A stretch of DNA of 64,000 nucleotides, from the NCBI GenBank assembly GCA_036517475.1, contig DATDVZ010000010.1:15338-79337 (forward strand), read 5' to 3'. The notes under the pieces are model-generated. The model was not told where the DNA came from, did no database searches, and was given only the letters and a program-made list of their open reading frames with translations. The translations under genes and the position numbers were made by a program. This DNA comes from Minisyncoccota bacterium (GTDB taxonomy: Bacteria > Patescibacteriota > Minisyncoccia > Phycocordibacterales > Zambryskibacteraceae). How positions within the stretch are numbered: the first letter of the stretch is position 1; each line of letters begins with the position of its first letter. Positions 3,660 to 58,282 of the stretch are shown here, one piece after another.

Positions 3660-4616
3660 ATGAATGATATAGACAAGTTAAAAAGAGACTTTCTTGAATA
3701 TCTGGAGATTGAAAGAGGTTCGGCCTTAAAAACTATTGAGAACTATGACTTATACCTAAGCCGCTTCTTGGATTTTGCCCAGGTAAAAAAACCAAATGAT
3801 ATTACAGAAAATAGCGTCAGACAATTCCGTCTTTCACTTAATAAGCAGCTTGTTGGTAATGGTCAGACTCTTTCCAAAAAAACTCAAAATTACTACATGA
3901 TTGCTTTGAGAATGTTTCTCAAATACCTTGCTAAAAGAAATATCAAAGCCATGCCGGCAGACCAGATTGAACTTGCAAAAGTTAAGGAACATTCTTTAAA
4001 TTTAATAACCCCCAAAGAGCTTGAACGACTTCTTGATGCTTCAAAAGGTAATGATTTGAAGAGTCTGCGCGATAAGGCAATACTTGAACTCCTTTTTTCT
4101 ACAGGTATGAGGGTCTCCGAACTTTGCTCCCTGCCGCGCGATATATCCACATCATCAGAAGAGCTCTCCATCCGAGGCAAGGGCGGTAAGATCAGAGTAG
4201 TCTTTATTTCAGAGAGTGCGCGTGAAGCGCTAAAAAAATATCTCAACGCCCGCAAGGATATGGAAGAAGGGCTTTTTATACGTTTAGGCAATCTTTCAGG
4301 TAAAAATAAGAATCCACCAGAGCAAAAAAAAGGAAAGGAGAAAAAAAAGAAATATCTCGGCAAAGATTACGGCAACCTAGACCGACGATCCGTTGAAAGT
4401 ATTGTAAAACACTATGCAATAAAAGCTGGCATTTCAAAAAAAGTTACTCCGCATGTCATAAGACACTGCTTCGCCACTGATCTTCTGCAAAATGGAGCGG
4501 ACTTGCGTTCAGTGCAGATGCTTTTGGGACACGCTAATATTGGCACTACTCAAATTTATACTCATATTACCGACAAGCACTTGAGAGAGGTTCATAAAAA
4601 ATATCACTCAAAATAA
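3660..4616 (+). CDS. tyrosine site-specific recombinase, XerC/XerD-like
   Basis: 318 aa; N-terminal SAM-like domain, catalytic HVIRHCFATDLL...LLGHANIGTTQIYTH. Carries a Lys-rich about 30-aa insertion (GKNKNPPEQKKGKEKKKKYLGKDYGN). Confidence 0.8.
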   Translation: MNDIDKLKRDFLEYLEIERGSALKTIENYDLYLSRFLDFAQVKKPNDITENSVRQFRLSLNKQLVGNGQTLSKKTQNYYMIALRMFLKYLAKRNIKAMPADQIELAKVKEHSLNLITPKELERLLDASKGNDLKSLRDKAILELLFSTGMRVSELCSLPRDISTSSEELSIRGKGGKIRVVFISESAREALKKYLNARKDMEEGLFIRLGNLSGKNKNPPEQKKGKEKKKKYLGKDYGNLDRRSVESIVKHYAIKAGISKKVTPHVIRHCFATDLLQNGADLRSVQMLLGHANIGTTQIYTHITDKHLREVHKKYHSK

Positions 4617-6216: not shown

Positions 6217-6247
6217 TAATGGTTCGCCCGAAAGGGCGAACCATTAG
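6217..6247 (+). promoter_or_regulatory. perfect 13-bp stem hairpin in the nusA 5' leader (taatggttcgccc gaaa gggcgaaccatta)
   Basis: seen directly, lies between the predicted TSS and the nusA ATG. Confidence 0.5.
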
Positions 6248-6281
6248 TTTAAATTATTCATTTCATTCATATAAATTTGGC

Positions 6282-7493
6282 ATGTTTGATCTAAAAGTAA
6301 TACATTCTGTTCTAGACCAGCTTCAAGATGAGAGGGGTATTCCAAAAGAAAAAGTCATTGAAGCAATAGGAGCTGCATTAGCAACAGCATACAGAAAAGA
6401 GTACGGGAAACGCGGACAGATTATTCGTGCTAATTTTGATATTAATACAGGAAAAACTGAATTTTATCAGGTAAAGGTTGTGGTTGATGAAAGCCGTGTG
6501 ATTTTTGCCGAAGAAGGTGAGGATGTTGAGAGGGCGGAAGGTGATGAGAGACCTTTTTTCAACCCAGAACACGACATAATTATTAATGATGCCAAAAAAA
6601 TAAAAAAAGACGTTGCGCTTGATGAGGAGTTGGTTTTCCCTCTGGAGACAAAAGATGATTTTGGCAGAATTGCATCTCAAACCGCAAAGCAGGTCATAAT
6701 GCAAAAAATACGCGAGGCGGAAAAAACTTCCGTTTTTTCCGAATTCGGCGAAAGAGAGGGAGAAATTGTTACTGGAACGGTGCAGAGGATTGAGAGAGGA
6801 AATATTTTTGTTGATATGGGAAGAGCAACTGGAATTCTCCCTTACGAAGAGCAGATTCCAACGGAGCGCTTCAGGCAAGGTGAGAGAGTACGTGCATATC
6901 TTTACAGAGTTGAAGAAACTCCCAGAGGAATTTTTCTTCGCCTCTCACGTTCTCATCCTAAACTTCTAGAAGAGCTTTTCAGGCAGGAAACCCCGGAAAT
7001 TGCAAATGATGTGGTAGAAATCAAAGCCGTGGCAAGGGAAGCGGGCTTTAGAAGCAAAATTGCAGCTTATTCAAAAGATGAACACATTGATCCAGTCGGT
7101 TCTATGGTCGGCCAAAGGGGGGTGCGAGTTTCAACTGTCATGAGCGAGCTTGGTGGAGAAAAAATCGATATTATTGAGTGGTCAGAGGATCCGAAGAAAT
7201 TTATTGAAGACGCCTTATCTCCCGCAAAAATCCTCTCTGTAGATGTTGATGAGGTGAATCATACTGCCAAAGTTGGGGTTTCAGAAGATCAGCAATCATT
7301 GGCAATTGGCCGTGGCGGACAAAACGTGCGTCTTGCGGCAAAACTCACGGGATGGAAAATAGACATCCAATCTGTCAAAGGGGAGAGTCTGGCAAATTCT
7401 GAAGTAGAGGAAAGTGAAATCCCAGAGAGGAAAGAAGGAAGGGAAATGACACCAGATATAGATATCCCATCTGAAAATCCCCAACTTACTTAA
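6282..7493 (+). CDS. nusA: transcription termination/antitermination factor NusA
   Basis: N-terminal domain, S1, two KH domains. Start placed at MFDLKVIHSV, since the ORF-track start at 6219 lies inside the leader hairpin. Confidence 0.9.
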   Translation: MFDLKVIHSVLDQLQDERGIPKEKVIEAIGAALATAYRKEYGKRGQIIRANFDINTGKTEFYQVKVVVDESRVIFAEEGEDVERAEGDERPFFNPEHDIIINDAKKIKKDVALDEELVFPLETKDDFGRIASQTAKQVIMQKIREAEKTSVFSEFGEREGEIVTGTVQRIERGNIFVDMGRATGILPYEEQIPTERFRQGERVRAYLYRVEETPRGIFLRLSRSHPKLLEELFRQETPEIANDVVEIKAVAREAGFRSKIAAYSKDEHIDPVGSMVGQRGVRVSTVMSELGGEKIDIIEWSEDPKKFIEDALSPAKILSVDVDEVNHTAKVGVSEDQQSLAIGRGGQNVRLAAKLTGWKIDIQSVKGESLANSEVEESEIPERKEGREMTPDIDIPSENPQLT

Positions 7494-9419: not shown

Positions 9420-10115
9420 TTACTGCAGTAATATTAAACTAGACACTGCAATTGCTGCAGTTTCTGATTTTAAAACCACATTTCCAAGCGAATAAATCTT
9501 CACTGAATTTTTATTGAAAAGAAATAGTTCCTTTTCGCTCCAGCCTCCTTCAGGACCAATAAAAACTCCTATTGGTGAGAGGTTATGGATATGTTCAATC
9601 CTGAACTCTTCCCCCTTTGTATGAAAAGCAAAACAAGGAAATTCATGGCTCAACGAATGCTCAAAGTGTTTTATTTCCGTGATCTCCGGAATCAGCGCCT
9701 TTTCTGATTGCTCAGCAGCTTCTTTGAGAATTACGCGAGCTCTGTCAAAATTAATTTCTTTTTTTTCGCTTCGATCAGAAATGATGGGAAAAAATTTTGA
9801 AACACCCAGTTCTGTCCCCTTTTCAATAATCCACTCAAATTTGTCTTTCTTTGTAAGAGAACAGAACAGATAAAGCTCGCGGTTAGGAATATTTTTACTT
9901 TCCTTGCGTGAAACTATTGAAAACATCAGATCACCCCTCTCAAAACTTGAGATCAAAGCGTGATATTCATAACCTGTATTATCTAGGAGTATAACCTGCC
10001 CACCTATATTGAATCTGAAAACGTTTCTCAACTGATTGTATAAAGAAGAATCACGAACAACAATCTCCTTTTTCTTGTCAATTTCTTTTGAAACAAAAAA
10101 ACGATGAAGTCTCAT
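9420..10115 (-). CDS. rsmE: 16S rRNA (uracil1498-N3)-methyltransferase RsmE
   Basis: 231 aa; MRLHRFFV N-term, GPEGGWSEKE SPOUT motif. Confidence 0.8.
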   Translation of the reverse strand: MRLHRFFVSKEIDKKKEIVVRDSSLYNQLRNVFRFNIGGQVILLDNTGYEYHALISSFERGDLMFSIVSRKESKNIPNRELYLFCSLTKKDKFEWIIEKGTELGVSKFFPIISDRSEKKEINFDRARVILKEAAEQSEKALIPEITEIKHFEHSLSHEFPCFAFHTKGEEFRIEHIHNLSPIGVFIGPEGGWSEKELFLFNKNSVKIYSLGNVVLKSETAAIAVSSLILLQ

Positions 10116-11147: not shown

Positions 11148-12683
11148 TTGCCTATGTCATTAAAAATAGTTCTGTTACTGCTAACCATTGCAGCATCTGC
11201 CGGTATTGCTTTCGGTTATTTTTTACGCTGGATAATATCTCTGGGTCAGAAGGGCTCAGTTGAATTGGATATTAAGGAGAAACTGCTTAATACGGAAGAG
11301 CAGGCAAAAAAAATCACTAACGAAGCGGAAAATAAAGCCGAGCAAATTATCAATGAAGCCAGAATAGAAATAAAAGAGCGAGAAGAAAAAATAAAAAAAA
11401 GCGAGGATCGTATTATTAAGAAAGAAGACTTTCTCGATAAGCGACAACTTGATATTGATAAAGAAATTGAGGCCGTCAAGGAAAAAATCTCTGAGGTGCG
11501 TGGCCTCAAGGAAAAAACTGAAGAGCTTCTCAATGAACGTCTTGAGGCCCTGCAAAAAATTTCAAAGCTATCAAAAGAAGAAGCCAAATCAGAACTCCTT
11601 AAAGAAATAGAGAAGGAGGCCGAGGAGGACGCCCTCTCAAGAGTCAGAAAGTTTGAAATGCACGCTTCTGAAATAATGGAGGAAAAAGCAAAGGAAATTC
11701 TTGCTTCCTCTATTCAACGACTTGCTTCGTCAGTTCCTTCTGAAATTATGGCTACAGCCGTTTCAATTCCTTCTGAGGAGGTAAAAGGTAAAATTATAGG
11801 TAAAGAAGGGCGTAATATAAAAGCCTTTGAAAGATCTACGGGAGTTGAAATAATAATTGACGACACTCCGGGATCAATCACACTCTCTTCCTTTGACCCA
11901 GTCAGACGCCAGATTGCGAGAGTAGCTTTGGAAAATCTAATCTTGGATGGCAGAATTCAGCCAGCAAAAATTGAAGAAGCTGTAGAAAAAGCAAAACAGG
12001 ATGTTAATAAAATTATCAAAGAAAAAGGCGAGCAGGCAGTATATGAATGCGGTGTTTATAATCTTGATCCAAGGGTTATTTCAATTCTCGGAAGATTATA
12101 TTTTCGTACAAGTTATGGACAGAATGTTCTTCAACATTCAATTGAGATGGCGCACATTGCAAGAATGCTTGCTGAAGAACTCGGTGCTGATGTTGCAGTG
12201 GCAAAAGCTGGAGCCCTGCTTCATGATATAGGCAAAGCCGTAGATCATGAAGTGGTTGGAACACATGTTGAAATTGGTAGAAGAATACTTCAGAAATTCG
12301 GAGTCAGTAATGAAATTATCAAGGCAATGCAGTCTCATCACGGTGAATATCCTTACGAAACAGTTGAATCAATAATTGTTCAGACAGCAGATGCTATTTC
12401 CGGCGGAAGGCCCGGCGCAAGACGCGATACTGTAGAAAATTATCTAAAACGATTGAAAGAACTTGAGGCAATTGCAGCCAGCTTTAGCGGTGTTGAGAAA
12501 TCATATGCAATAGCAGCAGGAAGAGAAATAAGAGTTTTTGTAACACCGGGCGAAATTTCAGATTTTGAAGCTCAAAAACTTGCAAGAAGTATTGCAAATA
12601 AAATAGAAAATGAACTCAAATATCCTGGAGAGATAAAAATAACAGTCATCCGGGAAAACAGGATTGTGGAATTTGCCCGCTAA
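11148..12683 (+). CDS. rny: ribonuclease Y
   Basis: 511 aa; N-terminal TM, coiled coil, KH domain, HD domain (LLHDIGKA). Confidence 0.9.
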   Translation: MPMSLKIVLLLLTIAASAGIAFGYFLRWIISLGQKGSVELDIKEKLLNTEEQAKKITNEAENKAEQIINEARIEIKEREEKIKKSEDRIIKKEDFLDKRQLDIDKEIEAVKEKISEVRGLKEKTEELLNERLEALQKISKLSKEEAKSELLKEIEKEAEEDALSRVRKFEMHASEIMEEKAKEILASSIQRLASSVPSEIMATAVSIPSEEVKGKIIGKEGRNIKAFERSTGVEIIIDDTPGSITLSSFDPVRRQIARVALENLILDGRIQPAKIEEAVEKAKQDVNKIIKEKGEQAVYECGVYNLDPRVISILGRLYFRTSYGQNVLQHSIEMAHIARMLAEELGADVAVAKAGALLHDIGKAVDHEVVGTHVEIGRRILQKFGVSNEIIKAMQSHHGEYPYETVESIIVQTADAISGGRPGARRDTVENYLKRLKELEAIAASFSGVEKSYAIAAGREIRVFVTPGEISDFEAQKLARSIANKIENELKYPGEIKITVIRENRIVEFAR

Positions 12684-12898
12684 ATCAGATGTATCTTCTG
12701 TTTTAACTGATTATAGCTTTATTTTAAGCCATATTTTTTTATAATGGAAAAAATACCTTTATTTTTCAATAGATTTTACTTGCCACTAAAATAGCTTGAT
12801 ATATAATGGCTCTACGACTAGAGATAAGGTTGGCAGCATATTATTCCTTAGTCTCGACGGTCGAGGATATTAACAGAAATAAATTTTCAATATAGAAA

Positions 12899-13171
12899 AT
12901 GAATAAAGCAGCATTAATTGAGGCGGTTCACGCTAAACTTGGAGGAACTAAAGTCCAAGCAGAACAAGCAGTTGAAACAATGATTGATACAATCGTTGAC
13001 ACTCTTAAAAAAGGCGGCGAAATGTCAATTGCTGGTCTTGGAATTTTCTCAACTAAGACTCGCGCAGCCAGACAAGCTCGCAATCCCCGAACCGGCGAAA
13101 CTATTCAAGTTTCAGCTATGAGAGTTCCTAAATTCCGCGCCGCAAAAGCTCTCAAGGACGCAGTAAAATAA
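12899..13171 (+). CDS. hup: HU family DNA-binding protein
   Basis: 90 aa; MNKAALIEAV...RNPRTGETIQV... Confidence 0.9.
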   Translation: MNKAALIEAVHAKLGGTKVQAEQAVETMIDTIVDTLKKGGEMSIAGLGIFSTKTRAARQARNPRTGETIQVSAMRVPKFRAAKALKDAVK

Positions 13172-13189
13172 TTTTTAAGATTTCATACA

Positions 13190-13218
13190 AAAAAAACGCG
13201 ATCTAACGCGTTTTTTTG
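13190..13218. terminator. bidirectional intrinsic terminator (aaaaaacgcg atctaa cgcgttttttt)
   Basis: 8-bp stem flanked by A-run and T-run. Confidence 0.7.
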
Positions 13219-13235
13219 TATGTAAAATCCCGCAA

Positions 13236-13631
13236 CTAAGTTACGGGATTGTCCTCTACCTCCAGTGGATCTCGAACGAAGGCCTCCGCTCCGAACCACT
13301 CGCCAGAACTTCTTTGAGAAAATCCGGTTTCCTCTGATTCCTCTCTAATAAGACCGGACTTGATCATAACCCTTCGGATTCTCATCTGTTTTTCATTCCG
13401 ACAGATATGAATGTACTCTTGCAAGAGCCAAACAAAAAATGGGTTGATTCTTTTAATTCCTTCCCTCTCCTGAATCTCCATTTGTTTAGCAAATGGAGTC
13501 CCCTCTCCAGTAAGACCAACCTCATATACATCAATTCTATCAAGAAGATTTTTATACCAGAGATGAAATTTTGGAATTCTGATTTGCAATTTACCGAATA
13601 CCAGCAAGATCAGATTCCTTAACAAATTCAT
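13236..13631 (-). CDS. hypothetical protein (131 aa), last gene of the tRNA-mRNA island
   Basis: no recognised domain; hairpin aatcccg...cgggatt at 13226-13251 overlaps its stop. Confidence 0.35.
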   Translation of the reverse strand: MNLLRNLILLVFGKLQIRIPKFHLWYKNLLDRIDVYEVGLTGEGTPFAKQMEIQEREGIKRINPFFVWLLQEYIHICRNEKQMRIRRVMIKSGLIREESEETGFSQRSSGEWFGAEAFVRDPLEVEDNPVT

Positions 13632-13805
13632 ATCCCACCTCCAGAGCTAGAGAGTTTGTTAGAAAAGCGCATCTGAGTAATAAACTAATATGGATAACAA
13701 ATTAATGCAATATTCCATTCAAATTTAAGAAAATTTATTTGCGTCAGTGCGACGCGCTTTGCGCCTTCCACCTTCTGGCTTTGAAAAAGCCGTTGAGTTC
13801 TGTAT

Positions 13806-13879
13806 TGGTGCGGCCAGCGAGAATCGAACTCGCGTCCCGTCCTTGGCAAGGACGTATTCTGCCACTAAACCATGGCCGC
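13806..13879 (-). tRNA. tRNA-Gly (GCC), CCA encoded
   Basis: GCGGCCA acceptor, anticodon stem CGTCC/GGACG, loop TTGCCAA, T-arm GCGAG-TTCGATT-CTCGC. Confidence 0.8.
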
Positions 13880-13926
13880 ATAAAAAAGAATTTTAAAATC
13901 CTATCAAATTAATAGAAATCAAACAA

Positions 13927-14466
13927 TTATTTGGCACCTAAGAAATTTATTATCTTTAATGCACATTTTTGTGGAGATAGGTGCGTATTGTTAATAATAA
14001 TTGGCGGATAAGATTTTAATCCTTGAAAAATTTTCGCTTTCAATTTTTCTTTAAACTTTTTGATTGTATTAGTTTTTGTTTTTTCTTTTCTTGAAGGCAT
14101 TAGAATTCTATTTTTATGCTCCTGCCAATCACACTCTATCCTGAAGAAAAAAATTTCGGCGTTCATTTTTTTTGCTAATTGTACAGATTTTTTCGCAATC
14201 TGCGTTGTTGGATGAAGTCTTATACTCAAAGTACAAATAATACCCCCTACTCCTGACTTAAGAAGCATTTTGAGTATTGCTAGATGCATTTTTCCATTTA
14301 GTAGGTGTGCATTTGGGGTTCCTTGGGGTATGAAATGACAGATCTCTCTGTAAGTAAGATGGTTATCCAACAATGCATATCCAGTCAACTTGCTGATAGC
14401 AAGACCGATCGTAGTTTTACCCACTCCAGGCAAACCAATCAAATAAATTACTCTTTTTCTTCTCAT
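13927..14466 (-). CDS. P-loop NMP/shikimate-kinase-like protein
   Basis: Walker A LIGLPGVGKTTIGLAISKLTGYALLDNHL (shikimate/gluconate kinase-like N-term). ATG at 14466. Confidence 0.5.
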   Translation of the reverse strand: MRRKRVIYLIGLPGVGKTTIGLAISKLTGYALLDNHLTYREICHFIPQGTPNAHLLNGKMHLAILKMLLKSGVGGIICTLSIRLHPTTQIAKKSVQLAKKMNAEIFFFRIECDWQEHKNRILMPSRKEKTKTNTIKKFKEKLKAKIFQGLKSYPPIIINNTHLSPQKCALKIINFLGAK

Positions 14467-14543
14467 TTTATTGCTTAATGCCAATATTTACTCAGGCAAT
14501 CCCAACCAAAGGATAATCAATTATATTTTAACCCTAATTATAT

Positions 14544-14614
14544 TCGGGCTGCCGGGAATTGAACCCGGGCCTTACCCACCCCATGGGCAAATACTACCGT
14601 TATACTACAGCCCG
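14544..14614 (-). tRNA. tRNA-Pro (GGG), no encoded CCA
   Basis: C1:G70 first pair, discriminator A, loop ATGGGGT, T-arm CCGGG-TTCAATT-CCCGG. Confidence 0.75.
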
Positions 14615-14617
14615 TTA

Positions 14618-15130
14618 TTATTCAAAAAAACCCTTCTCTTTGTACTCCTTTACCAATGCATCCGCAGTTTCTTTTTCAAGGTCTATGGGAATCTGGCTTG
14701 CCCACTCTTCAGCCTCTTCCAATTTATCATTTATCAAAAGATATAGAAGTTTTGTGATGGTATTTGGGTGATTCTCAGACTGGTACTCGAGTGCTTTTGC
14801 AGCATGAAACTGTGCTTTTTCTTTATCTTTATATCTCCATGTCGCACAGCTAATTGCATGATGATGCCAAAACCAGAGAATTTCTTGCCAATATTCTTTT
14901 TCTTCTTCCGTAAGAGTTGCTGAATCAACAGCTTCTAAAATTTCTTTTACTTTATTTACTACTAGATTAGGATTGTTATAATCCCAGGAACCATCCTTCA
15001 TGAGTTTCTGATCTTCTTCGCTGTATCTATGCGACAACCCAAGAGGTGTTTTTGCCGCCAGCAGAACATAAGCTGCCCTTAGTGGGCTTCTCTCTATTTC
15101 AAATACTTCATTACCGGTGGAACCTTCCAT
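14618..15130 (-). CDS. hypothetical protein (170 aa) wedged between two tRNA-Pro genes
   Basis: ATG 2 nt after the tRNA-Pro(UGG) 3' end; stop 3 nt before the tRNA-Pro(GGG) 5' end. Confidence 0.4.
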   Translation of the reverse strand: MEGSTGNEVFEIERSPLRAAYVLLAAKTPLGLSHRYSEEDQKLMKDGSWDYNNPNLVVNKVKEILEAVDSATLTEEEKEYWQEILWFWHHHAISCATWRYKDKEKAQFHAAKALEYQSENHPNTITKLLYLLINDKLEEAEEWASQIPIDLEKETADALVKEYKEKGFFE

Positions 15131-15132
15131 TG

Positions 15133-15203
15133 TCGGGGCGCCGAGAATCGAACTCGGCCCTCATGCTCCCAAAGCATGCATACTACCGATATACTACGCC
15201 CCG
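15133..15203 (-). tRNA. tRNA-Pro (UGG), no encoded CCA
   Basis: C1:G pair, anticodon stem CATGC/GCATG, loop TTTGGGA, T-arm CCGAG-TTCGATT-CTCGG. Confidence 0.8.
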
Positions 15204-15252
15204 AATTTCGGATTAATTTACACTGGTCGGCACCTCACTGGTATTCATTCGT

Positions 15253-15323
15253 TCGGGGTGCCGGGAATTGAACCCGATTCTCACGAACCCGAATCGTGTA
15301 TACTACCGGTGTACTACACCCCG
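15253..15323 (-). tRNA. tRNA-Pro (CGG), no encoded CCA
   Basis: C1:G pair, anticodon stem CACGA/TCGTG, loop TTCGGGT. Confidence 0.75.
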
Positions 15324-15370
15324 AAAATAACTTTCAAATCCTATCATAGAGACAGAAGAGCAGCGAATTT

Positions 15371-15754
15371 TTACAAAACAATATTTTCCATGTACTTCAC
15401 CTTAACTTTTTTATTCCCCTCATCAATCACCACTACCGCTACATCAAATTGCCAGTCAACCTCTAAATCTTTTTCAAGTAAATAAGTCTGAATTGTTCTT
15501 GATAACCTTTTCATTTTCCAGGGGTGAATGTTATCCTCCGGATTCCAAGAATCTAATGTTTCACGTGAAAACTCAGAAAAACTGACTGTTTTTACCTCAA
15601 CAAAATGAATTTTCCCGTCAATTTCTGCAATTATGTCAATTTCGCCCCATTTTCTTAGATAATTTCTTTCAATAATATTAGATTTTCTACTCTCAAGAAA
15701 TTTACAGGTAATTTCCTCACCAATATCACCAAATCTTCTTCTCTCGCTTTTCAT
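15371..15754 (-). CDS. YraN-family (UPF0102) endonuclease
   Basis: 127 aa; GDIGEEITCKFLESRKSNIIERNY...GEIDIIAEIDGKIHFVEVKT. Confidence 0.7.
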   Translation of the reverse strand: MKSERRRFGDIGEEITCKFLESRKSNIIERNYLRKWGEIDIIAEIDGKIHFVEVKTVSFSEFSRETLDSWNPEDNIHPWKMKRLSRTIQTYLLEKDLEVDWQFDVAVVVIDEGNKKVKVKYMENIVL

Positions 15755-15970
15755 AATTTAATTGATTTCACGTGAAACTAAAATATTAGTTACTAAGTAA
15801 CTTATTCAAAAATGTTACTTAGAAACACAATTAACTGATCTGTAATTAAATTCCTAATTAAAGGACGTCCTTTATACACATATCCACAGTTTTATCCCCA
15901 ATTCTTTGTCCTTTATATTTTAAATACAACCATACATATTTAAAGAATTGGGATTAAAATAAAGGACATT

Positions 15971-16041
15971 TGCGGGATGGGAGAATCGAACTCCCGACCA
16001 CAGTTTGGAAAACTGTTGTTTTGCCACTAAACTAATCCCGC
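15971..16041 (-). tRNA. tRNA-Gly (UCC), no encoded CCA
   Basis: GCGGGAT acceptor, anticodon stem ACAGT/ACTGT, loop TTTCCAA. Confidence 0.8.
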
Positions 16042-16043
16042 AT

Positions 16044-16115
16044 CGCACCCGTCAGGAATCGAACCCGAAATACGAAGTCCGAAGCTTCGCGTGATATCCG
16101 TTTCACTACGGGTGC
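16044..16115 (-). tRNA. tRNA-Arg (UCG), no encoded CCA
   Basis: GCACCCG acceptor, anticodon stem CGAAG/CTTCG, loop CTTCGGA. 2 nt from tRNA-Gly. Confidence 0.8.
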
Positions 16116-16157
16116 ACAGCTATATCATAACTTCAATTCTCCTAAATTTAAGGCTTA

Positions 16158-16186
16158 ATATTAAACTAAAAGAATAAATGATACAA
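16158..16186 (-). promoter_or_regulatory. candidate promoter of the tRNA-mRNA island (TTGTAT-17-TAATAT on the minus strand)
   Basis: located about 40 nt upstream of the tRNA-Arg 5' end. Confidence 0.35.
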
Positions 16187-16194
16187 TCATTCTT

Positions 16195-17667
16195 ATGTCA
16201 AATTCTACCTTTGAAATACCCCCCGAAGTTTCACGTATAACCAAAAAATTAGAGGAAAATGGTTTTGAAGCTTATTTAATAGGTGGATGTGTACGTGACT
16301 TATTTCTTGGTAAAAAACCAAAAGATTGGGATATAACAACTAATGCTAAACCTGATGATATAGTTTCACTCTTTGAAAACACATTTTACGAAAACGAATT
16401 TGGCACAGTGGGGGTGGTAAACGAGACTGATGACCAAACTCTTAAGGTTATTGAGGTTACACCTTACAGAACAGAGGGTAAGTACACGGACAGAAGAAGG
16501 CCTGATAATGTTTCATTTGATGCCACTTTAGAGGATGACCTGAAAAGACGTGATTTTACCATTAATGCTATTGCATTAAATAGTGAGAAAAACATCGTTG
16601 TTGACCCTTTTTTGGGCAGAAAAGATATTCAGGATGGTCTAATCCGGACAGTTGGTAATCCAAATGACAGATTTGAGGAAGATGGATTAAGGCTTATTAG
16701 GGCAATAAGAATTTATTCAGAGTTAGGTTTTTATGTTGAAAAGGAAACTCTTAATGCAATAGAGGGTACGTCTTATCTGCTTAAAAATATTGCTAAGGAA
16801 AGAATCCGTGATGAATTTATAAAAATTATTGAATCCCCGAACCCAATGAATGGCCTAATACTTGCTCAAAAAACCGGTGTTCTAAAGTATATTATTCCTG
16901 AACTCCAGGATGCGGTCGGGATTGAGCAAAATAAAGCACATGCCTACGATGTCTGGACCCATTTGCAAAAAACACTACAGCATTCAGCAGATAAGAAATT
17001 ACCCCTTCATGTCCGTCTGGCAGCTTTGTTTCATGATATTTCCAAACCGGCTGCCCGCCGAAGATCAGAAAATGGCGAAGATTGGACATTTTATGGTCAC
17101 GATGTACTGGGCGCCAAGATTACAGAGAAAATACTTGAAGACCTAAAGTTCCCAAGGGACACAATTAATAAGGTAGCTAAACTGGTACGCTGGCATATGT
17201 TCTTTTCAGACACTGAAAAAATAACCCTTTCTGCCGTCAGACGCCTAGTTGCTAATGTCGGAGAACAAAATGTATGGGATTTAATGGATTTAAGAGCCTG
17301 CGACAGGGTGGGGACAGGCAGACCCAAGGAACATCCCTACCGCTTGCGCAAGTATAAAGCTATGGTGGAAGAGGTGATGCGTGATCCTGTAACAGTCGGG
17401 ATGTTGAAAATTAATGGAGATAAAATTATGAAAATTACCAGTCTGCCAGCTGGTCCAAAAATTGGGTTTATACTTCACGCCCTACTTGAAGAAGTTCTTG
17501 AAAAACCAGATCTAAATACAGAGGAGGAATTGATAAAAATAACTAAGAAATTAGGCCTACTTTCTGATGATGAATTAAAAAAAATAGGAGAAGCGGGAAA
17601 AAGAAAAAGAGAAGAAGAGGAAGAAAAGGTTATCAAAGAAATTAGGGGTAAATACTGGGTCAAGTAA
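16195..17667 (+). CDS. cca: CCA-adding tRNA nucleotidyltransferase with HD domain
   Basis: 490 aa; GGCVRDLFLGKKPKDWDITT head motif, HD domain LFHDISKP. Confidence 0.85.
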   Translation: MSNSTFEIPPEVSRITKKLEENGFEAYLIGGCVRDLFLGKKPKDWDITTNAKPDDIVSLFENTFYENEFGTVGVVNETDDQTLKVIEVTPYRTEGKYTDRRRPDNVSFDATLEDDLKRRDFTINAIALNSEKNIVVDPFLGRKDIQDGLIRTVGNPNDRFEEDGLRLIRAIRIYSELGFYVEKETLNAIEGTSYLLKNIAKERIRDEFIKIIESPNPMNGLILAQKTGVLKYIIPELQDAVGIEQNKAHAYDVWTHLQKTLQHSADKKLPLHVRLAALFHDISKPAARRRSENGEDWTFYGHDVLGAKITEKILEDLKFPRDTINKVAKLVRWHMFFSDTEKITLSAVRRLVANVGEQNVWDLMDLRACDRVGTGRPKEHPYRLRKYKAMVEEVMRDPVTVGMLKINGDKIMKITSLPAGPKIGFILHALLEEVLEKPDLNTEEELIKITKKLGLLSDDELKKIGEAGKRKREEEEEKVIKEIRGKYWVK

Positions 17668-55624: not shown

Positions 55625-56974
55625 ATGCCAGATCACAAAGAACTATGGAACTCCGTCCTGGTAGAAATGGAATTAAGTGTTTCCAAACCCAACTTTAACA
55701 CCTGGTTTAAAGACACCAATATCGTCCGACATGACGATAACACGGTTTATCTGGCTGTTCCTAACGCTTTTGTGAAAGAGTGGCTCCATAATAAATACCA
55801 CAACACAATATTGCGCCATATCCGTTCCATTGTGCCCTCCGTCCATTCAGTGGAATACATTATTACAAGGGAAGATGGTAAAAAAACCGAAACAAGGAGG
55901 GAAGAGATGTTGATTGCGCCCGTCCAAGAACTTCCTCTAAGCGATTATTACATCAACAAGGAGGATAATCTGAACCCCAGATACACATTTGAAAGTTTTA
56001 TAGTGGGTCCGTTCAATGAATTGGCACACGCTGCTTCCCAAGCTGTAATAAAAAAGCCGGGATTAACATATAACCCTCTTTTCATTTACGGAAATACGGG
56101 TCATGGCAAAACTCACCTCATACAGGCAGTTGGAAACCATATTAAAAACTTGTATAAGGATAAAAAAGTGATCTATGTTACCTCCGAAAAATTCGCTTCT
56201 GATGTGATAGGTGGAATTCAGAGCGGAAAAATTGCCCAAATCAAAGAAAAGTACAGAAAATATGATGTTTTAATCATGGATGACATCCAGTTTCTCTCCA
56301 GAACGGAAAAGACTCAGGAGGAGCTATTTCACCTCTTCAATACTCTTTTTGACAACAACAAACAAATTGTATTTTCTTCTGACAAACACCCCAATCTCAT
56401 ACCGGGAATAGAGGACCGCCTTAAAGGTAGATTTTCTGCAGGAATGACTGTAGATATTCCCGCCCCAGATCAGGATTCGCGAGCGGCAATAATAAAAGCC
56501 AAAACAACACAGAATAATTTCTCGCTTTCACAGGAAGTAATTGATTTTCTTGCTTTAAGTATTATTGGAAATATACGTGATCTGGAGGGGGTAATTAATC
56601 TCATAATCTGCCAGTCCCAACTTAAAGGTAGGGAACTCAGCCTCAATGAGGTCAAAAACACCATAAAGGCAAGCGCCAAACCAAAGAAGTCAGTGTCCAT
56701 TAAGGAGGTTGTTAAAATGGTCGCAGATTACTATAGAATCGAGGAAAACAACATTTACGAAAAAACCAGAAGAAAGGAAATAATAAAACCAAGACAAGTT
56801 GCTATGTATATATTAAGGGAGGATTTTAATATTTCTTACCCATCGATTGGACAGAAGTTGGGTGGTAGGGATCATACAACCGTAATTCACTCTTGTGAAA
56901 AAATCAAATCAGAAGTAAAAGATGATCAGATGCTGGCTCAAGAGATTGCACAACTACGTTCAATGATTGTTTAA
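55625..56974 (+). CDS. dnaA: chromosomal replication initiator DnaA
   Basis: 449 aa; AAA+ (GNTGHGKTHL), C-terminal DNA-binding domain. Confidence 0.95.
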   Translation: MPDHKELWNSVLVEMELSVSKPNFNTWFKDTNIVRHDDNTVYLAVPNAFVKEWLHNKYHNTILRHIRSIVPSVHSVEYIITREDGKKTETRREEMLIAPVQELPLSDYYINKEDNLNPRYTFESFIVGPFNELAHAASQAVIKKPGLTYNPLFIYGNTGHGKTHLIQAVGNHIKNLYKDKKVIYVTSEKFASDVIGGIQSGKIAQIKEKYRKYDVLIMDDIQFLSRTEKTQEELFHLFNTLFDNNKQIVFSSDKHPNLIPGIEDRLKGRFSAGMTVDIPAPDQDSRAAIIKAKTTQNNFSLSQEVIDFLALSIIGNIRDLEGVINLIICQSQLKGRELSLNEVKNTIKASAKPKKSVSIKEVVKMVADYYRIEENNIYEKTRRKEIIKPRQVAMYILREDFNISYPSIGQKLGGRDHTTVIHSCEKIKSEVKDDQMLAQEIAQLRSMIV

Positions 56975-57184
56975 AAGGTGTTGAATATTAAACTGATACT
57001 CTGTTGAAAATTACTAACAAAAAACCGATTTTAAAAATCAATGGGAAATTATTAACAATCAAAATTAATAGTAAACAGTTTATTAGTTTTGGTGGTGTTT
57101 GAATTGTGTTGTTATAAAACAATAAATATCATTTATCCACAAATCCACACAACTAAAAGTAGTAATAGTATTTATTTATAGAAA
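56975..57184 (+). promoter_or_regulatory. candidate oriC / DUE in the dnaA-dnaN spacer with DnaA boxes
   Basis: perfect TTATCCACA at 57133-57141, AAATCCACA at 57142-57150, very AT-rich flank. A further 1-mismatch box TTATCAACA lies at 55525-55533 upstream of dnaA. Confidence 0.55.
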
Positions 57185-58282
57185 ATGCATATTGAAACTA
57201 TAAAAGAAAAGTTACTTGATGCGGTATATAAAGCGGAAAAAATTACCGGTAGAAATATGGCCTTACAAATACTTTCAAATCTTGCAATTGAGGTATCTGG
57301 TTCTCAATTTAAAATAAAAGCTACAAATTTAGATCTTGGTTTGGAAATAATTGTGCCAGTTAAAGTAAAATCTCCCGGTAAAATCACAGTTTCTGCATTA
57401 ATACTTTCAAATTTTTTAGCAAACCTTCCAGTTGAGACAAAAATTGATATTCAAAGCAAGGAAAATGATGTTTTTATTCATACATCAAAAACCTCAACAA
57501 AAATTAAAAACCAGAATTTTTCCGATTTCCCCCTAATTCCAAAACTTGAAGGAAAGAAGTTTAAAATCGAGGCAAACTCAATTGTGAAAGGTTTAAAATC
57601 TGTTGTTTTCTCTGCTGCAACCTCATCAATAAAACCCGAGCTCTCAAGTATTAATATTTACCATGATGGTGAAAGTTTGGTTTTTGTTGCGACAGACTCA
57701 TTCCGACTCGCTGAAAAAAGAATCAAGACTACAAAAGCCAAGGAAATTAGCCAAATTTTAATACCTTTTAAAAATACCACTGATATTATTAGAATATTAG
57801 AGTCTGTTAATGGTGAATTAGATTTAACAATTTCCCAGAATCAAATATCGTTTAAAACTGATGAAATCTATCTGGTTTCAAGAGTTATTGAAGGGAATTT
57901 TCCAGATTATAAACAAATAATACCAAAAGAGACTAAAACTGAGGTTACTCTTTTGAAAGCTGACCTTCTTTCCGCACTTAAATTATCAAACGTTTTTTCT
58001 GACAGTTTCAATCAGGTTGTACTGAAAGTGATCCCAGATGAAAAATTATTTGAACTTACTACTAAAAATTCAGATGTTGGGGAAAATCACTATACACTTG
58101 ATTCTGTAATGAAAGGTGATGAAATTACTCTCGGTTTTAACCATAAATACATCGCCGACTGCCTTAACTCAATTGATTCTGACAGTATAACTCTTTCATT
58201 TGTTGGTCCGGGCAAACCCGTAATGATCAAGGGTGTTTCAGATAAGTCATTTTTATATATAGTAATGCCAATGAATAGATGA
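57185..58282 (+). CDS. dnaN: DNA polymerase III beta sliding clamp
   Basis: 365 aa, three-domain clamp, dnaA-dnaN order. Confidence 0.9.
   Translation: MHIETIKEKLLDAVYKAEKITGRNMALQILSNLAIEVSGSQFKIKATNLDLGLEIIVPVKVKSPGKITVSALILSNFLANLPVETKIDIQSKENDVFIHTSKTSTKIKNQNFSDFPLIPKLEGKKFKIEANSIVKGLKSVVFSAATSSIKPELSSINIYHDGESLVFVATDSFRLAEKRIKTTKAKEISQILIPFKNTTDIIRILESVNGELDLTISQNQISFKTDEIYLVSRVIEGNFPDYKQIIPKETKTEVTLLKADLLSALKLSNVFSDSFNQVVLKVIPDEKLFELTTKNSDVGENHYTLDSVMKGDEITLGFNHKYIADCLNSIDSDSITLSFVGPGKPVMIKGVSDKSFLYIVMPMNR

What the first reader, a model, noticed from the sequence alone, without database searches (positions are those of the whole stretch)
13236..16186. Alternating tRNA-mRNA island: six CCA-less tRNAs interleaved with four protein genes at 2-3-nt junctions, next to cca
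On the minus strand in transcription order, from a TTGTAT-17-TAATAT promoter at 16186-16158: tRNA-Arg(UCG), tRNA-Gly(UCC), the yraN-like gene, tRNA-Pro(CGG), tRNA-Pro(UGG), orf170, tRNA-Pro(GGG), a shikimate-kinase-like P-loop gene, tRNA-Gly(GCC), orf131, then terminator hairpins. Orf170 starts 2 nt after one tRNA and stops 3 nt before the next. RNase P/Z processing of the tRNAs would therefore define the mRNA ends, a punctuation arrangement like that in mitochondrial transcripts. Only tRNA-Gly(GCC) encodes CCA; the other five need the CCA-adding enzyme encoded divergently at 16195. All three Pro isoacceptors are clustered. Both tRNA-Pro(UGG) and tRNA-Pro(CGG) show the bacterial C1:G72 signature.
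Basis: partly seen in the sequence, partly recalled or inferred. Interest (0 to 1): 0.55.

Follow-up and report, generated by a model that had tools for sequence, protein, structure and literature searches.

The report
tRNA-flanked gene in conserved tRNA locus
Six real tRNA genes of an uncultured Paceibacteria (CPR) bacterium sit in a locus conserved across its relatives, and one small protein gene is wedged 2-3 bases from a tRNA on each side, so its mRNA can probably only be made by tRNA-processing cuts, a bacterial echo of mitochondrial "tRNA punctuation" that has not been tested experimentally.

Summary
The description is accurate. ARAGORN and Rfam confirm six minus-strand tRNAs with the stated anticodons. 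orf170 starts 2 nt after A73 of tRNA-Pro(UGG) and ends 3 nt before tRNA-Pro(GGG). Only tRNA-Gly(GCC) templates CCA, and cca lies divergently upstream.

Two points fail:
- Only orf170 has 2-3-nt junctions; the other ORFs have 46-215-nt spacers.
- The proposed promoter is wrong. Its "-35" TTGTAT is the reverse complement of the cca -10.

In 72 related loci the scaffold cca<>tRNA-Arg-tRNA-Gly-yraN-tRNA-Pro(UGG)-small ORF-tRNA-Gly...hup-rny is conserved, while the ORFs in the slots vary. Conserved promoters precede tRNA-Arg, the Pro tRNAs and tRNA-Gly(GCC), and a conserved DnaA-box cluster precedes yraN. The island is therefore several transcription units, not one polycistron.

The core unit is promoter-tRNA-Pro(CGG)-tRNA-Pro(UGG)-orf170-tRNA-Pro(GGG). 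It leaves no room for a promoter or ribosome-binding site for orf170. This genome almost lacks Shine-Dalgarno sites and shows the leaderless signature. An RNase Z/P-excised, UTR-less orf170 mRNA is thus plausible but inferred. ORF starts within 12 nt of a tRNA 3' end recur in relatives (18/242).

Verdict: a new variant of known tRNA-mRNA co-transcription, of moderate interest.

The parts
16195..17667 (+). cca: class II tRNA nucleotidyltransferase with an HD domain, divergent from the island
   Evidence: Pfam PolyA_pol 1.5e-35, PolyA_pol_RNAbd, HD. The best NCBIfam hits are CCA tRNA nucleotidyltransferase, 1e-83, below the equivalog cut-off.
16179..16187 (+). Extended -10 TGATACAAT of cca, 7 nt before the ATG (leaderless-type).
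   Evidence: The -10 to ATG distance of 6-8 nt matches the genome-wide peak.
16124..16151 (-). Promoter of tRNA-Arg(UCG): TTAAAT-16 nt-TATGAT. The -10 ends 8 nt before G+1, giving a leader of about 2 nt.
   Evidence: The homologous TTGAWT-N16-17-TATGAT element is conserved in relatives. 40 of 62 tRNA-Arg genes have a -10 ending 7-11 nt before +1, and the histogram shows a sharp peak.
16044..16115 (-). tRNA-Arg(UCG), no CCA, discriminator G
   Evidence: 56.9 bits
15971..16041 (-). tRNA-Gly(UCC), no CCA, 2 nt (AT) after tRNA-Arg
   Evidence: 70.5 bits
15860..15900 (-). Conserved non-coding element: three tandem DnaA-box-like 9-mers (TGGGGATAA, TGTGGATAT, TGTGTATAA) followed by the palindrome AAAGGAC/GTCCTTT
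   Evidence: It is found in about 45 related loci, always between tRNA-Gly and yraN and in the orientation of yraN.
15371..15754 (-). yraN (UPF0102, PD-(D/E)XK nuclease)
   Evidence: Pfam 2.8e-19 and NCBIfam YraN. Present at this position in 35 of 35 loci with enough sequence.
15332..15346 (-). Internal promoter: extended -10 TGATAGGAT (15346-15338) inside the exact 15-mer TGATAGGATTTGAAA, 14 nt before tRNA-Pro(CGG)
   Evidence: two exact copies in 64 kb, both upstream of tRNAs; 23 of 44 relatives versus 1.3 expected.
15253..15323 (-). tRNA-Pro(CGG), C1:G72, A73, no CCA
15133..15203 (-). tRNA-Pro(UGG), C1:G72, A73, followed by CA and then the ATG of orf170
   Evidence: In the fold of the precursor, the acceptor stem ends 3 nt before the AUG.
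14618..15130 (-). orf170: conserved Patescibacteria-specific TPR-like all-alpha protein with no UTR space on either side
14544..14614 (-). tRNA-Pro(GGG), C1:G72, A73, no CCA; begins 3 nt after the orf170 stop codon
13927..14466 (-). Rare P-loop NTPase (AAA_33-like; an alternative TTG start lies at 14484)
   Evidence: There are only 6 homologs among 5.8 billion proteins, and none of the three fetched lies near a tRNA.
13890..13906 (-). Promoter of tRNA-Gly(GCC): TGATAGGAT (13906-13898) and/or TAAAAT (13895-13890, 10 nt before G+1)
   Evidence: 24 of 51 tRNA-Gly(GCC) genes have a -10 ending 7-11 nt before +1.
13806..13879 (-). tRNA-Gly(GCC) with templated CCA
   Evidence: 66 bits
13236..13631 (-). 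orf131: very rare protein, and the only gene here with a canonical SD (GGAGG)
   Evidence: one homolog, 40% identity. That homolog lies in the same context, tRNA-Gly(GCC)...GGAGG-ORF-hup.
13184..13250 (.). Two hairpins: 13250-13226 over the orf131 stop codon, and 13222-13184, an A-run/T-run bidirectional terminator shared with hup
   Evidence: -33.2 kcal/mol, z = -6.6
11148..13171 (+). rny (RNase Y) and hup (HU), the conserved far border of the locus

Best explanation
This is the species-specific version of a chromosomal locus conserved across Paceibacteria: cca <> tRNA-Arg(UCG)-tRNA-Gly-[DnaA-box cluster]-yraN-tRNA-Pro(UGG)-small ORF-tRNA-Gly ... hup-rny.

In this species the Pro set is complete (CGG, UGG, GGG). 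Three lineage-restricted genes occupy the variable slots between the tRNAs: TPR-like orf170, a rare P-loop NTPase, and orf131.

The island is transcribed from several promoters rather than one:
- one at the 5' end of tRNA-Arg;
- a region carrying DnaA boxes upstream of yraN;
- an extended -10 upstream of tRNA-Pro(CGG);
- another upstream of tRNA-Gly(GCC).

The unit promoter-tRNA-Pro(CGG)-tRNA-Pro(UGG)-orf170-tRNA-Pro(GGG) must be one transcript. On this model, RNase Z-type cleavage after A73 of tRNA-Pro(UGG) gives an mRNA 5' end of pCA-AUG. RNase P cleavage at +1 of tRNA-Pro(GGG) gives the 3' end ...UAA-UAA. The excised RNA has essentially no UTRs. It would be translated like the leaderless mRNAs that dominate this Shine-Dalgarno-poor genome.

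Shown: the anatomy, the conservation, the promoter motifs and the leaderless signature. Inferred: co-transcription, the identity of the nucleases, and translation of the processed RNA.
For: - Anatomy: tRNA boundaries and junctions.
- orf170 is a real gene: 64 homologs with a conserved N-terminus and a confident fold.
- Scaffold conservation in 72 non-redundant loci: tRNA-Arg next to cca in 55/59, yraN in 35/35, the full Arg-Gly-yraN-Pro(UGG) scaffold in 31/35.
- Slot content is variable. orf170, the P-loop gene and orf131 are absent from the slots of relatives, except for a frameshifted orf170 in L047.
- In relatives an RNHCP zinc-ribbon gene usually follows tRNA-Pro(UGG), at 2-32 nt in at least 9 loci.
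- Promoters: conserved -35/-10 upstream of tRNA-Arg; a -10 peak 8-10 nt before tRNA +1; the exact 15-mer with an extended -10 twice, only upstream of tRNAs; TGnTAnnnT upstream of tRNA-Pro(UGG) in 23/44 relatives versus 1.3 expected.
- Translation context: 1 of 55 window genes has a canonical SD. A strict -10 hexamer peaks 6-8 nt before the ATG in 198 of 938 genes. This is the accepted leaderless signature (PMC6028130).
- The first 50 nt of the excised mRNA are weakly structured (-3.8 kcal/mol; 170 of 200 shuffles fold at least as well).
- ORF starts are densest 0-12 nt after tRNA 3' ends and rarest at 30-100 nt.
Against: - No transcript data exist. Co-transcription, cleavage sites and translation are all inferred.
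- RNase Z and RNase P genes were not seen, because only 64 kb of the genome is available.
- The 2- and 3-nt junctions are unique to this species. In the closest syntenic relative (L047), orf170 lies 240 nt from tRNA-Pro(UGG), is frameshifted, and has no tRNA after it. The tight geometry is therefore recent and may be neutral compaction.
- Enrichment of tight tRNA-to-ATG junctions over random positions is modest (5.3% versus 2.2% for -3 to +6 nt).
- An RNase Z product carries a 5' monophosphate and a 2-nt leader, which reduces leaderless translation in E. coli (own knowledge).
- The -35 elements of the internal promoters are weak, and the consensus scan does not report them.
Confidence: 0.6

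Rival explanations
1. One reading: one long polycistronic tRNA-mRNA precursor. It starts at TTGTAT-17-TAATAT (16186-16158), runs through all six tRNAs and four ORFs to the terminators, and is cut up by RNase P/Z.
For: All ten genes are on one strand. No canonical intrinsic terminator was found between 16116 and 13250. The only strong hairpins are at the end.
Against: - TTGTAT is the reverse complement of the cca extended -10.
- The conserved tRNA-Arg promoter is 30 nt further downstream.
- Extended -10 elements precede tRNA-Pro(CGG) and tRNA-Gly(GCC) and tRNA-Pro(UGG) in relatives.
- A 215-nt spacer with a conserved DnaA-box cluster separates tRNA-Gly(UCC) from yraN.
- Individual tRNAs are inverted in many relatives without loss of the locus. 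This argues against an obligate single transcript.
Confidence: 0.1
2. Neutral compaction at a gene-flux hot spot. orf170 landed between tRNAs in a variable slot, and deletions removed its flanks. It is now poorly expressed, or on its way to loss, and the junctions have no function.
For: - The slots hold 106 different families in about 70 loci, mostly singletons.
- The orf170 homolog in L047 is frameshifted.
- orf170 homologs elsewhere are usually not near tRNAs.
- The tight geometry is species-specific.
Against: - orf170 is intact and identical on 14 contigs from several samples.
- It belongs to a conserved family with invariant motifs and folds confidently.
- Tight tRNA-to-ATG junctions recur with different genes, including essential cca at 6-12 nt (L069, L120, L114, L127) and another orf170 homolog 4 nt after tRNA-Cys (L014). 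Such junctions are therefore compatible with expression in this clade.
Confidence: 0.2
3. orf170 is expressed without tRNA processing: either from a promoter inside tRNA-Pro(UGG), or by ribosomes initiating on the unprocessed precursor.
For: TAGTAT-like hexamers occur inside the tRNA D-arm region. Non-SD initiation is the rule in this genome.
Against: The AUG lies 3 nt from a stable 7-bp acceptor stem in the precursor, inside the ribosome footprint. An internal promoter would give a 5' UTR of about 50 nt made of the tRNA T-arm, which is unlike the leaderless or A-rich leaders of other genes.
Confidence: 0.07
4. The island is, or derives from, a mobile element (phage or integrative island) that carries or targets tRNA genes.
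For: There is a cluster of six tRNAs, with rare or orphan ORFs between them and hypervariable neighbours in relatives.
Against: - No integrase, transposase or repeats flank the island.
- Composition matches the flanks.
- The tRNA set and its order are conserved chromosomal features in 72 loci down to 59% cca identity.
- orf170 and orf131 have no phage matches.
- Cargo in relatives consists of ordinary enzymes.
Confidence: 0.03

Closest known systems
Mitochondrial tRNA punctuation (Ojala, Montoya and Attardi 1981; reviewed in PMC10941002 and PMC3790967)
   Same: An mRNA is bounded within 0-3 nt by tRNAs on both sides. Its ends would be set by RNase Z and RNase P. The resulting mRNA has no 5' UTR, and the translation system already uses leaderless messages.
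   Different: Here only one gene is bounded on both sides. The locus has several promoters, and stop codons are complete (TAA TAA), so no polyadenylation is needed. It is a free bacterial chromosome, and nothing has been shown experimentally.
Bacterial mixed tRNA-protein operons, e.g. E. coli thrU-tyrU-glyT-thrT-tufB and secG-leuU (own knowledge; RNase P processing of polycistronic tRNA transcripts, PMC2190699)
   Same: tRNAs and protein genes lie on one strand and are driven by a tRNA promoter, and tRNA processing separates the tRNA from the mRNA.
   Different: In the classical cases the mRNA keeps a 5' UTR with a Shine-Dalgarno site and spacers of tens to hundreds of nt. Here the spacer is 2 nt, there is no SD, and a second tRNA abuts the stop codon.
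Leaderless-transcription genomes (GeneMarkS-2 'group C': Actinobacteria, Deinococcus; PMC6028130, PMC3898074)
   Same: The Pribnow box lies 6-8 nt before the start codon in a large fraction of genes, and SD motifs are scarce.
   Different: The lineage is Patescibacteria. The library searches found no paper describing this for that lineage. The orf170 message would become leaderless by processing, not by transcription initiation.
Nanoarchaeum equitans leaderless tRNAs (cited in PMC10941002)
   Same: Promoters sit at a fixed short distance from the mature tRNA 5' end (-10 ending 8-10 nt before +1 for many Arg and Gly tRNAs).
   Different: The spacing predicts a 2-3-nt leader rather than none. 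tRNAs inside arrays and the C1 Pro tRNAs still need a 5' endonuclease.

Membership tests
tRNA (Rfam RF00005) | Cloverleaf covariance-model score above the gathering threshold, with an anticodon assigned | tested here: met
   All six score 54-70 bits against a 29-bit threshold. ARAGORN gives the same anticodons and strand.
tRNA punctuation-type mRNA | The mRNA is directly abutted by tRNAs on both sides, on the same strand | tested here: met
   orf170: 2 nt after A73 of tRNA-Pro(UGG) and 3 nt before +1 of tRNA-Pro(GGG). This does not hold for yraN, the P-loop gene or orf131.
tRNA punctuation-type mRNA | A polycistronic precursor containing both tRNAs and the mRNA is demonstrated | not testable with these tools
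   No transcript data. This is inferred from the lack of space for a promoter.
tRNA punctuation-type mRNA | Ends are generated by RNase P and RNase Z | not tested
   Neither enzyme gene is in the 64-kb window. Rfam finds no RNase P RNA in the window.
tRNA punctuation-type mRNA | The translation system accepts leaderless or UTR-less mRNA | tested here: met
   This is an indirect sequence signature: 1 of 55 genes has a canonical SD, and the -10 peaks 6-8 nt before the ATG.
   There are conserved promoter motifs upstream of tRNA-Arg, tRNA-Pro and tRNA-Gly(GCC) and a DnaA-box cluster upstream of yraN.
YraN / UPF0102 | Pfam PF02021 above the gathering score | tested here: met
   69.7 bits versus 23.6. 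NCBIfam YraN models hit at 1e-22 but below the equivalog cut-offs.
CCA-adding enzyme (class II nucleotidyltransferase) | PolyA_pol head domain plus RNA-binding domain, with CCA-adding rather than poly(A) or A-adding specificity | tested here: inconclusive
   The domains are present. The best NCBIfam hits are CCA tRNA nucleotidyltransferases, but all are below the curated cut-offs. Specificity cannot be read from sequence here.
Shikimate kinase | Full-length match to the SKI family | tested here: not met
   Only Walker A residues about 6-38 match, and all scores are below cut-off.
Mobile genetic island at or with tRNA genes | Integrase or recombinase, flanking repeats, atypical composition, patchy presence | tested here: not met
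   No such genes or repeats were found. GC resembles the flanks, the scaffold is conserved, and there are no phage hits.

The most novel reading that the evidence does not exclude
In Paceibacteria, tRNA 3'/5' processing may be a regular route for making translatable mRNAs. tRNA promoters would drive adjacent protein genes, and RNase Z/P cuts would create leaderless-type messages. Examples are cca after tRNA-Arg, RNHCP or orf170 after tRNA-Pro(UGG), and orf170 after tRNA-Cys. This would be a bacterial counterpart of mitochondrial punctuation, made possible by a translation apparatus that largely ignores Shine-Dalgarno sites.
Probability: 0.35. Interest if true: 0.65.

Novelty: new variant of a known kind. 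Interest (0 to 1): 0.45.

Why it matters
If the excised, UTR-less orf170 message is real, a free-living-type bacterial lineage uses the mitochondrial solution: tRNA cuts define mRNA ends, and ribosomes start at or next to the 5' end.

This would link three traits of CPR bacteria that are seldom discussed together: extreme genome compaction, loss of Shine-Dalgarno dependence, and CCA-less tRNAs that require endonucleolytic 3' processing.

There are practical consequences. Gene callers and operon predictors should treat tRNA 3' ends as potential mRNA 5' ends in these genomes. Expression of such genes would also be tied to tRNA promoter strength and tRNA-processing capacity.

The comparative work also defines a conserved locus, with promoter motifs and a DnaA-box cluster upstream of yraN. 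This locus can be used to study CPR transcription signals.

Tried and rejected
- Consensus promoter/terminator scan. It found fewer promoter-like sites than shuffles and no terminators. It is too strict for these extended -10 promoters and for the A/T-stemmed terminator, so it was replaced by comparative motif analysis and folding.
- Association of the orf170 family with tRNAs. Most of the 43 genomic loci have no tRNA nearby. A family-wide link to tRNAs was rejected; only the window, L014, L006 and L047 show one.
- Search for the RNHCP gene (cluster c6) in the window by HMM. It is absent.
- Tests of whether the P-loop gene or orf131 travel with tRNAs elsewhere. The three fetched P-loop homolog contexts have none. 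The single orf131 homolog lies in the same tRNA-Gly(GCC)/hup context.
- Phage origin of orf170 and orf131. No match.
- Rfam search for other RNAs in the spacers. Only sub-threshold chance hits.
- oriC at the island. GC skew is uninformative. dnaA-dnaN lies 40 kb away with its own box-plus-trio arrangement. The DnaA-box cluster upstream of yraN is therefore treated as a secondary or regulatory site, not as the origin.
- Literature searches for a bacterial or CPR precedent for tRNA-punctuated or processing-generated leaderless mRNAs. None was found in the held library.

Full report
**1. Observation**

ARAGORN finds exactly six tRNA genes in the 64-kb window. Rfam's tRNA model confirms all six at 54-70 bits against a 29-bit threshold, and finds no other RNA family above threshold anywhere in the window.

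Reading the sequence with Rfam boundaries gives these junctions:
- tRNA-Arg(UCG) ends with discriminator G16044. tRNA-Gly(UCC) starts at G16041, leaving a 2-nt spacer.
- tRNA-Pro(UGG) ends with A15133. The next bases are CA, then the ATG of orf170 at 15130.
- orf170 stops with TAA at 14620-14618. A second TAA follows, and tRNA-Pro(GGG) starts at C14614.
- Only tRNA-Gly(GCC) is followed by CCA.
- All three Pro tRNAs have C1:G72 and A73.

The other junctions are not tight:
- 215 nt before yraN and 46 nt after it;
- 47 nt between the first two Pro tRNAs;
- 59-77 nt before the P-loop gene and 47 nt after it;
- 174 nt before orf131.

The title's 'four genes at 2-3-nt junctions' is therefore true only for orf170.

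Two very stable hairpins follow orf131 (-33 kcal/mol, z = -6.6). The second has an A-run and a T-run and can serve as a bidirectional terminator shared with hup.

**2. The proteins**

- *yraN* is a clear UPF0102/YraN member (Pfam 2.8e-19; NCBIfam). A recent preprint shows that YraN is an ssDNA endonuclease that resolves the transformation D-loop together with ComM (10.1101/2024.02.06.579203). It is a DNA enzyme, not a tRNA enzyme.
- *The P-loop protein* matches kinases only over Walker A. It has six homologs among 5.8 billion proteins. The three whose contigs I fetched are not near tRNAs.
- *orf131* has one distant homolog (40% identity). That homolog sits in the same place, after a tRNA-Gly(GCC) and before a convergent hup, and has the same GGAGG Shine-Dalgarno site. 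It is therefore a real but very rare gene.
- *cca* has the class II nucleotidyltransferase head, RNA-binding and HD domains. Its best family hits are CCA-adding enzymes, although below the curated cut-offs.

**3. Source and relatives**

orf170 is found identically on 14 contigs annotated as Candidatus Paceibacterota.

Searching metagenome contigs with the cca protein gave 80 loci at 59-70% identity. I mapped tRNAs and window proteins onto them. Among 72 non-redundant loci:
- 55 of the 59 with at least 400 nt upstream have tRNA-Arg(UCG) within 1 kb of cca (40 divergent, 15 on the cca strand).
- All 35 with at least 2.5 kb upstream have yraN.
- 34 have a tRNA-Gly between yraN and cca.
- 32 have tRNA-Pro(UGG) within 500 nt after yraN.
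- 31 have the complete Arg-Gly-yraN-Pro(UGG) order.
- Where the contig continues, a second tRNA-Gly, hup, rny, clpP and rsmE follow.

The tRNA scaffold is thus an old chromosomal feature. What lies between the tRNAs is not. Clustering all ORFs of these loci shows that orf170, the P-loop gene, orf131 and the neighbouring orf484 are absent from relatives. The one exception is L047, where an orf170 homolog lies 240 nt after tRNA-Pro(UGG), is frameshifted, and has no tRNA behind it.

The usual occupant after tRNA-Pro(UGG) is a 100-aa RNHCP zinc-ribbon protein (Pfam 2e-29), which the window lacks. Across loci the slots hold 106 different families, mostly singletons with ordinary functions such as NUDIX, hydrolases, Ddl and MatE. 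No recombinase is apparent among the families listed.

GC content is like the flanks, and there are no phage matches. A mobile-element origin is therefore unlikely.

**4. Transcription signals**

On the other strand, TTGTAT reads ATACAA. This is part of TGATACAAT (16179-16187), an extended -10 that ends 7 nt before the cca ATG.

*The tRNA-Arg promoter.* Alignment of the cca/tRNA-Arg intergenic regions of relatives shows a conserved TTGAWT-N16-17-TATGAT element whose -10 ends 8-10 nt before the tRNA's G+1 (40 of 62). The window has TTAAAT (16151-16146)-16 nt-TATGAT (16129-16124), 8 nt before G16115. Over all tRNAs in the related loci, strict -10 hexamers pile up 8-10 nt before +1 (56 of 228, against a background of about 2 per position). 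This predicts primary transcripts with only 2-3-nt leaders.

*Internal promoters.* The 15-mer TGATAGGATTTnAAA occurs exactly twice in 64 kb. One copy lies 14 nt before tRNA-Pro(CGG) and the other 18 nt before tRNA-Gly(GCC). It contains an extended -10 (TGnTAnnnT). Relatives carry the same kind of element (TGGTAGTAT, TGCTAGACT) 5-30 nt before tRNA-Pro(UGG) in 23 of 44 cases, against 1.3 expected.

*The yraN spacer.* The 215-nt spacer before yraN contains a 31-41-nt element conserved at 93-100% identity in loci whose proteins are only 40-60% identical. It consists of three tandem DnaA-box-like 9-mers followed by a short palindrome.

*Conclusion.* The island is several transcription units: tRNA-Arg + tRNA-Gly(UCC); yraN; the Pro-tRNA/orf170 unit (possibly extending into the P-loop gene); tRNA-Gly(GCC); and orf131, either with its own promoter or as the trailer of tRNA-Gly(GCC).

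**5. The part that survives**

Between the extended -10 at 15346-15338 and tRNA-Pro(GGG) there is no room for another promoter. orf170 has neither a promoter nor a ribosome-binding site of its own. Its upstream 20 nt are the T-arm and acceptor stem of tRNA-Pro(UGG).

The genome context makes a processed, UTR-less mRNA plausible:
- Only one of 55 window genes has a canonical SD (orf131).
- Strict -10 hexamers peak sharply 6-8 nt before start codons: 198 of 938 genes in the window plus relatives, against about 8 per background position. This is the diagnostic used to call leaderless transcription (PMC6028130).

Cutting after A73, the standard RNase Z reaction for CCA-less precursors, would leave 5'-pCAAUG.... 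RNase P at tRNA-Pro(GGG) would leave ...UAAUAA-3'. The first 50 nt of that RNA are less structured than most shuffles.

The motif is not isolated. 18 of 242 tRNAs in the related loci have an ORF of at least 80 aa starting within 12 nt of their 3' end. These include:
- tRNA-Pro(UGG) followed by RNHCP at 1-8 nt in seven loci;
- tRNA-Arg(UCG) followed by cca at 6-12 nt in four loci where the tRNA is inverted;
- tRNA-Cys followed by an orf170 homolog at 4 nt (L014).

The density of starts is highest at 0-12 nt and lowest at 30-100 nt. The excess over random positions is only about 2.4-fold.

**6. What remains inference**

There are no RNA data. The RNase Z and RNase P genes are outside the window. 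The 2/3-nt geometry is specific to this species. A 5'-monophosphate, 2-nt-leader mRNA is not guaranteed to be translated efficiently. Neutral compaction at a gene-flux hot spot, with weak expression, remains a serious rival (about 0.2).

CCA-less tRNA genes are ordinary in bacteria (PMC5143459). In this clade only 39 of 225 tRNA genes template CCA. The 'need' for cca is therefore true but not special. The conserved cca-tRNA-Arg adjacency is the more notable fact.

**7. Comparison and novelty**

Mixed tRNA-protein operons (E. coli tufB, secG-leuU; own knowledge) and mitochondrial punctuation are both known. This case combines bacterial chromosomal context, double-sided 2-3-nt junctions and a leaderless-type translation regime.

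I found no description of this for bacteria or CPR in the held literature. Absence from that library is not proof of novelty.

I rate it a new variant of a known kind, interest 0.45. The generalised reading, that tRNA processing is a routine source of leaderless mRNAs in Paceibacteria, has probability about 0.35 and would merit about 0.65.

Noticed in passing
window 15860-15900 (and about 45 related loci, e.g. L115 6495-6535, L052 6404-6449): A highly conserved non-coding element lies between tRNA-Gly and yraN. It consists of three tandem DnaA-box-like 9-mers (consensus AAAACTGTGGATAAsTCTGkGGAyATGTGTATAAAGGACA) followed by the palindrome AAGGAC/GTCCTT. It always has the orientation of yraN, even where yraN is inverted (L090). 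It is the only cluster of such boxes in the window. It may be a DnaA-controlled yraN promoter, a DnaA-titrating cluster, or part of an origin.
   Followed up: partly
window-wide, e.g. 16179-16194 (cca), 1434-2528, 3660-4616, 34076, 39673; plus all related loci: Canonical Shine-Dalgarno motifs are nearly absent (1 of 55 genes). Strict -10 hexamers peak sharply 6-8 nt before ATG codons (198 of 938 genes). This is the signature of prevalent leaderless transcription in this Paceibacteria clade. The literature searches found no paper describing it for CPR.
   Followed up: partly
upstream of tRNA-Arg(UCG), tRNA-Gly(GCC) and tRNA-Gly(UCC) in the window (16124-16129; 13890-13895) and in relatives: -10 boxes end 8-10 nt before the mature tRNA 5' end, with a conserved purine at the 7th position after the box. 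This predicts primary tRNA transcripts with only 2-3-nt 5' leaders. Pro tRNAs (C at +1) instead have extended -10 boxes 13-25 nt upstream.
   Followed up: partly
219 tRNA genes in loci L006-L128: The gene-encoded tail after the discriminator is most often 'CA', not 'CCA'. Position 74 is C in 84% of genes. Position 75 is A in 61% and C in 29%. Full CCA occurs in only 17%. No explanation was found.
   Followed up: no
related loci, e.g. L074 (1 nt before tRNA-Arg), L084, L094, L065, L119, L093: A roughly 225-aa protein has an N-terminal HTH and a 'LYWAEGGK' motif (cluster c11; Pfam detects only the HTH). It repeatedly ends 1-38 nt upstream of a tRNA (Arg or Gly). In the same set of loci, individual tRNA genes are often inverted. 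This may be a homing-endonuclease-like gene associated with tRNA genes.
   Followed up: no
window 55625-58282, intergenic 56975-57184: dnaA (Pfam 1e-64) and dnaN are present. The only perfect DnaA box, TTATCCACA (57133-57141), is followed by AATCCACAC and then TAG/TAA-type trinucleotide repeats and AT-rich sequence. This is a likely oriC unwinding module, 40 kb from the island.
   Followed up: partly
L047 4780-4975: The 240-nt spacer between tRNA-Pro(UGG) and the frameshifted orf170 homolog holds three direct repeats of about 17 nt (CTGTAAGGsrAGATTCC-like) with a period of about 40 nt.
   Followed up: no
window 13632-13650 and L133 180-198: orf131 and its only homolog both keep a canonical GGAGG 6-7 nt before the ATG, in genomes that otherwise hardly use SD. 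Both lie between tRNA-Gly(GCC) and a convergent hup.
   Followed up: partly
window 15793-15822: A perfect 9-bp inverted repeat, CTAAGTAAC-N12-GTTACTTAG, lies about 40-70 nt upstream of the yraN ATG and overlaps a TTGAAT/TAATAT promoter-like pair. It may be an operator.
   Followed up: no
window 11148-12683, 16195-17667, 9420-10115, 6219-7493: RNA-metabolism genes flank the tRNA island on both sides (rny/RNase Y, cca, rsmE, nusA). The cca...hup-rny-clpP-rsmE order is conserved in relatives.
   Followed up: partly
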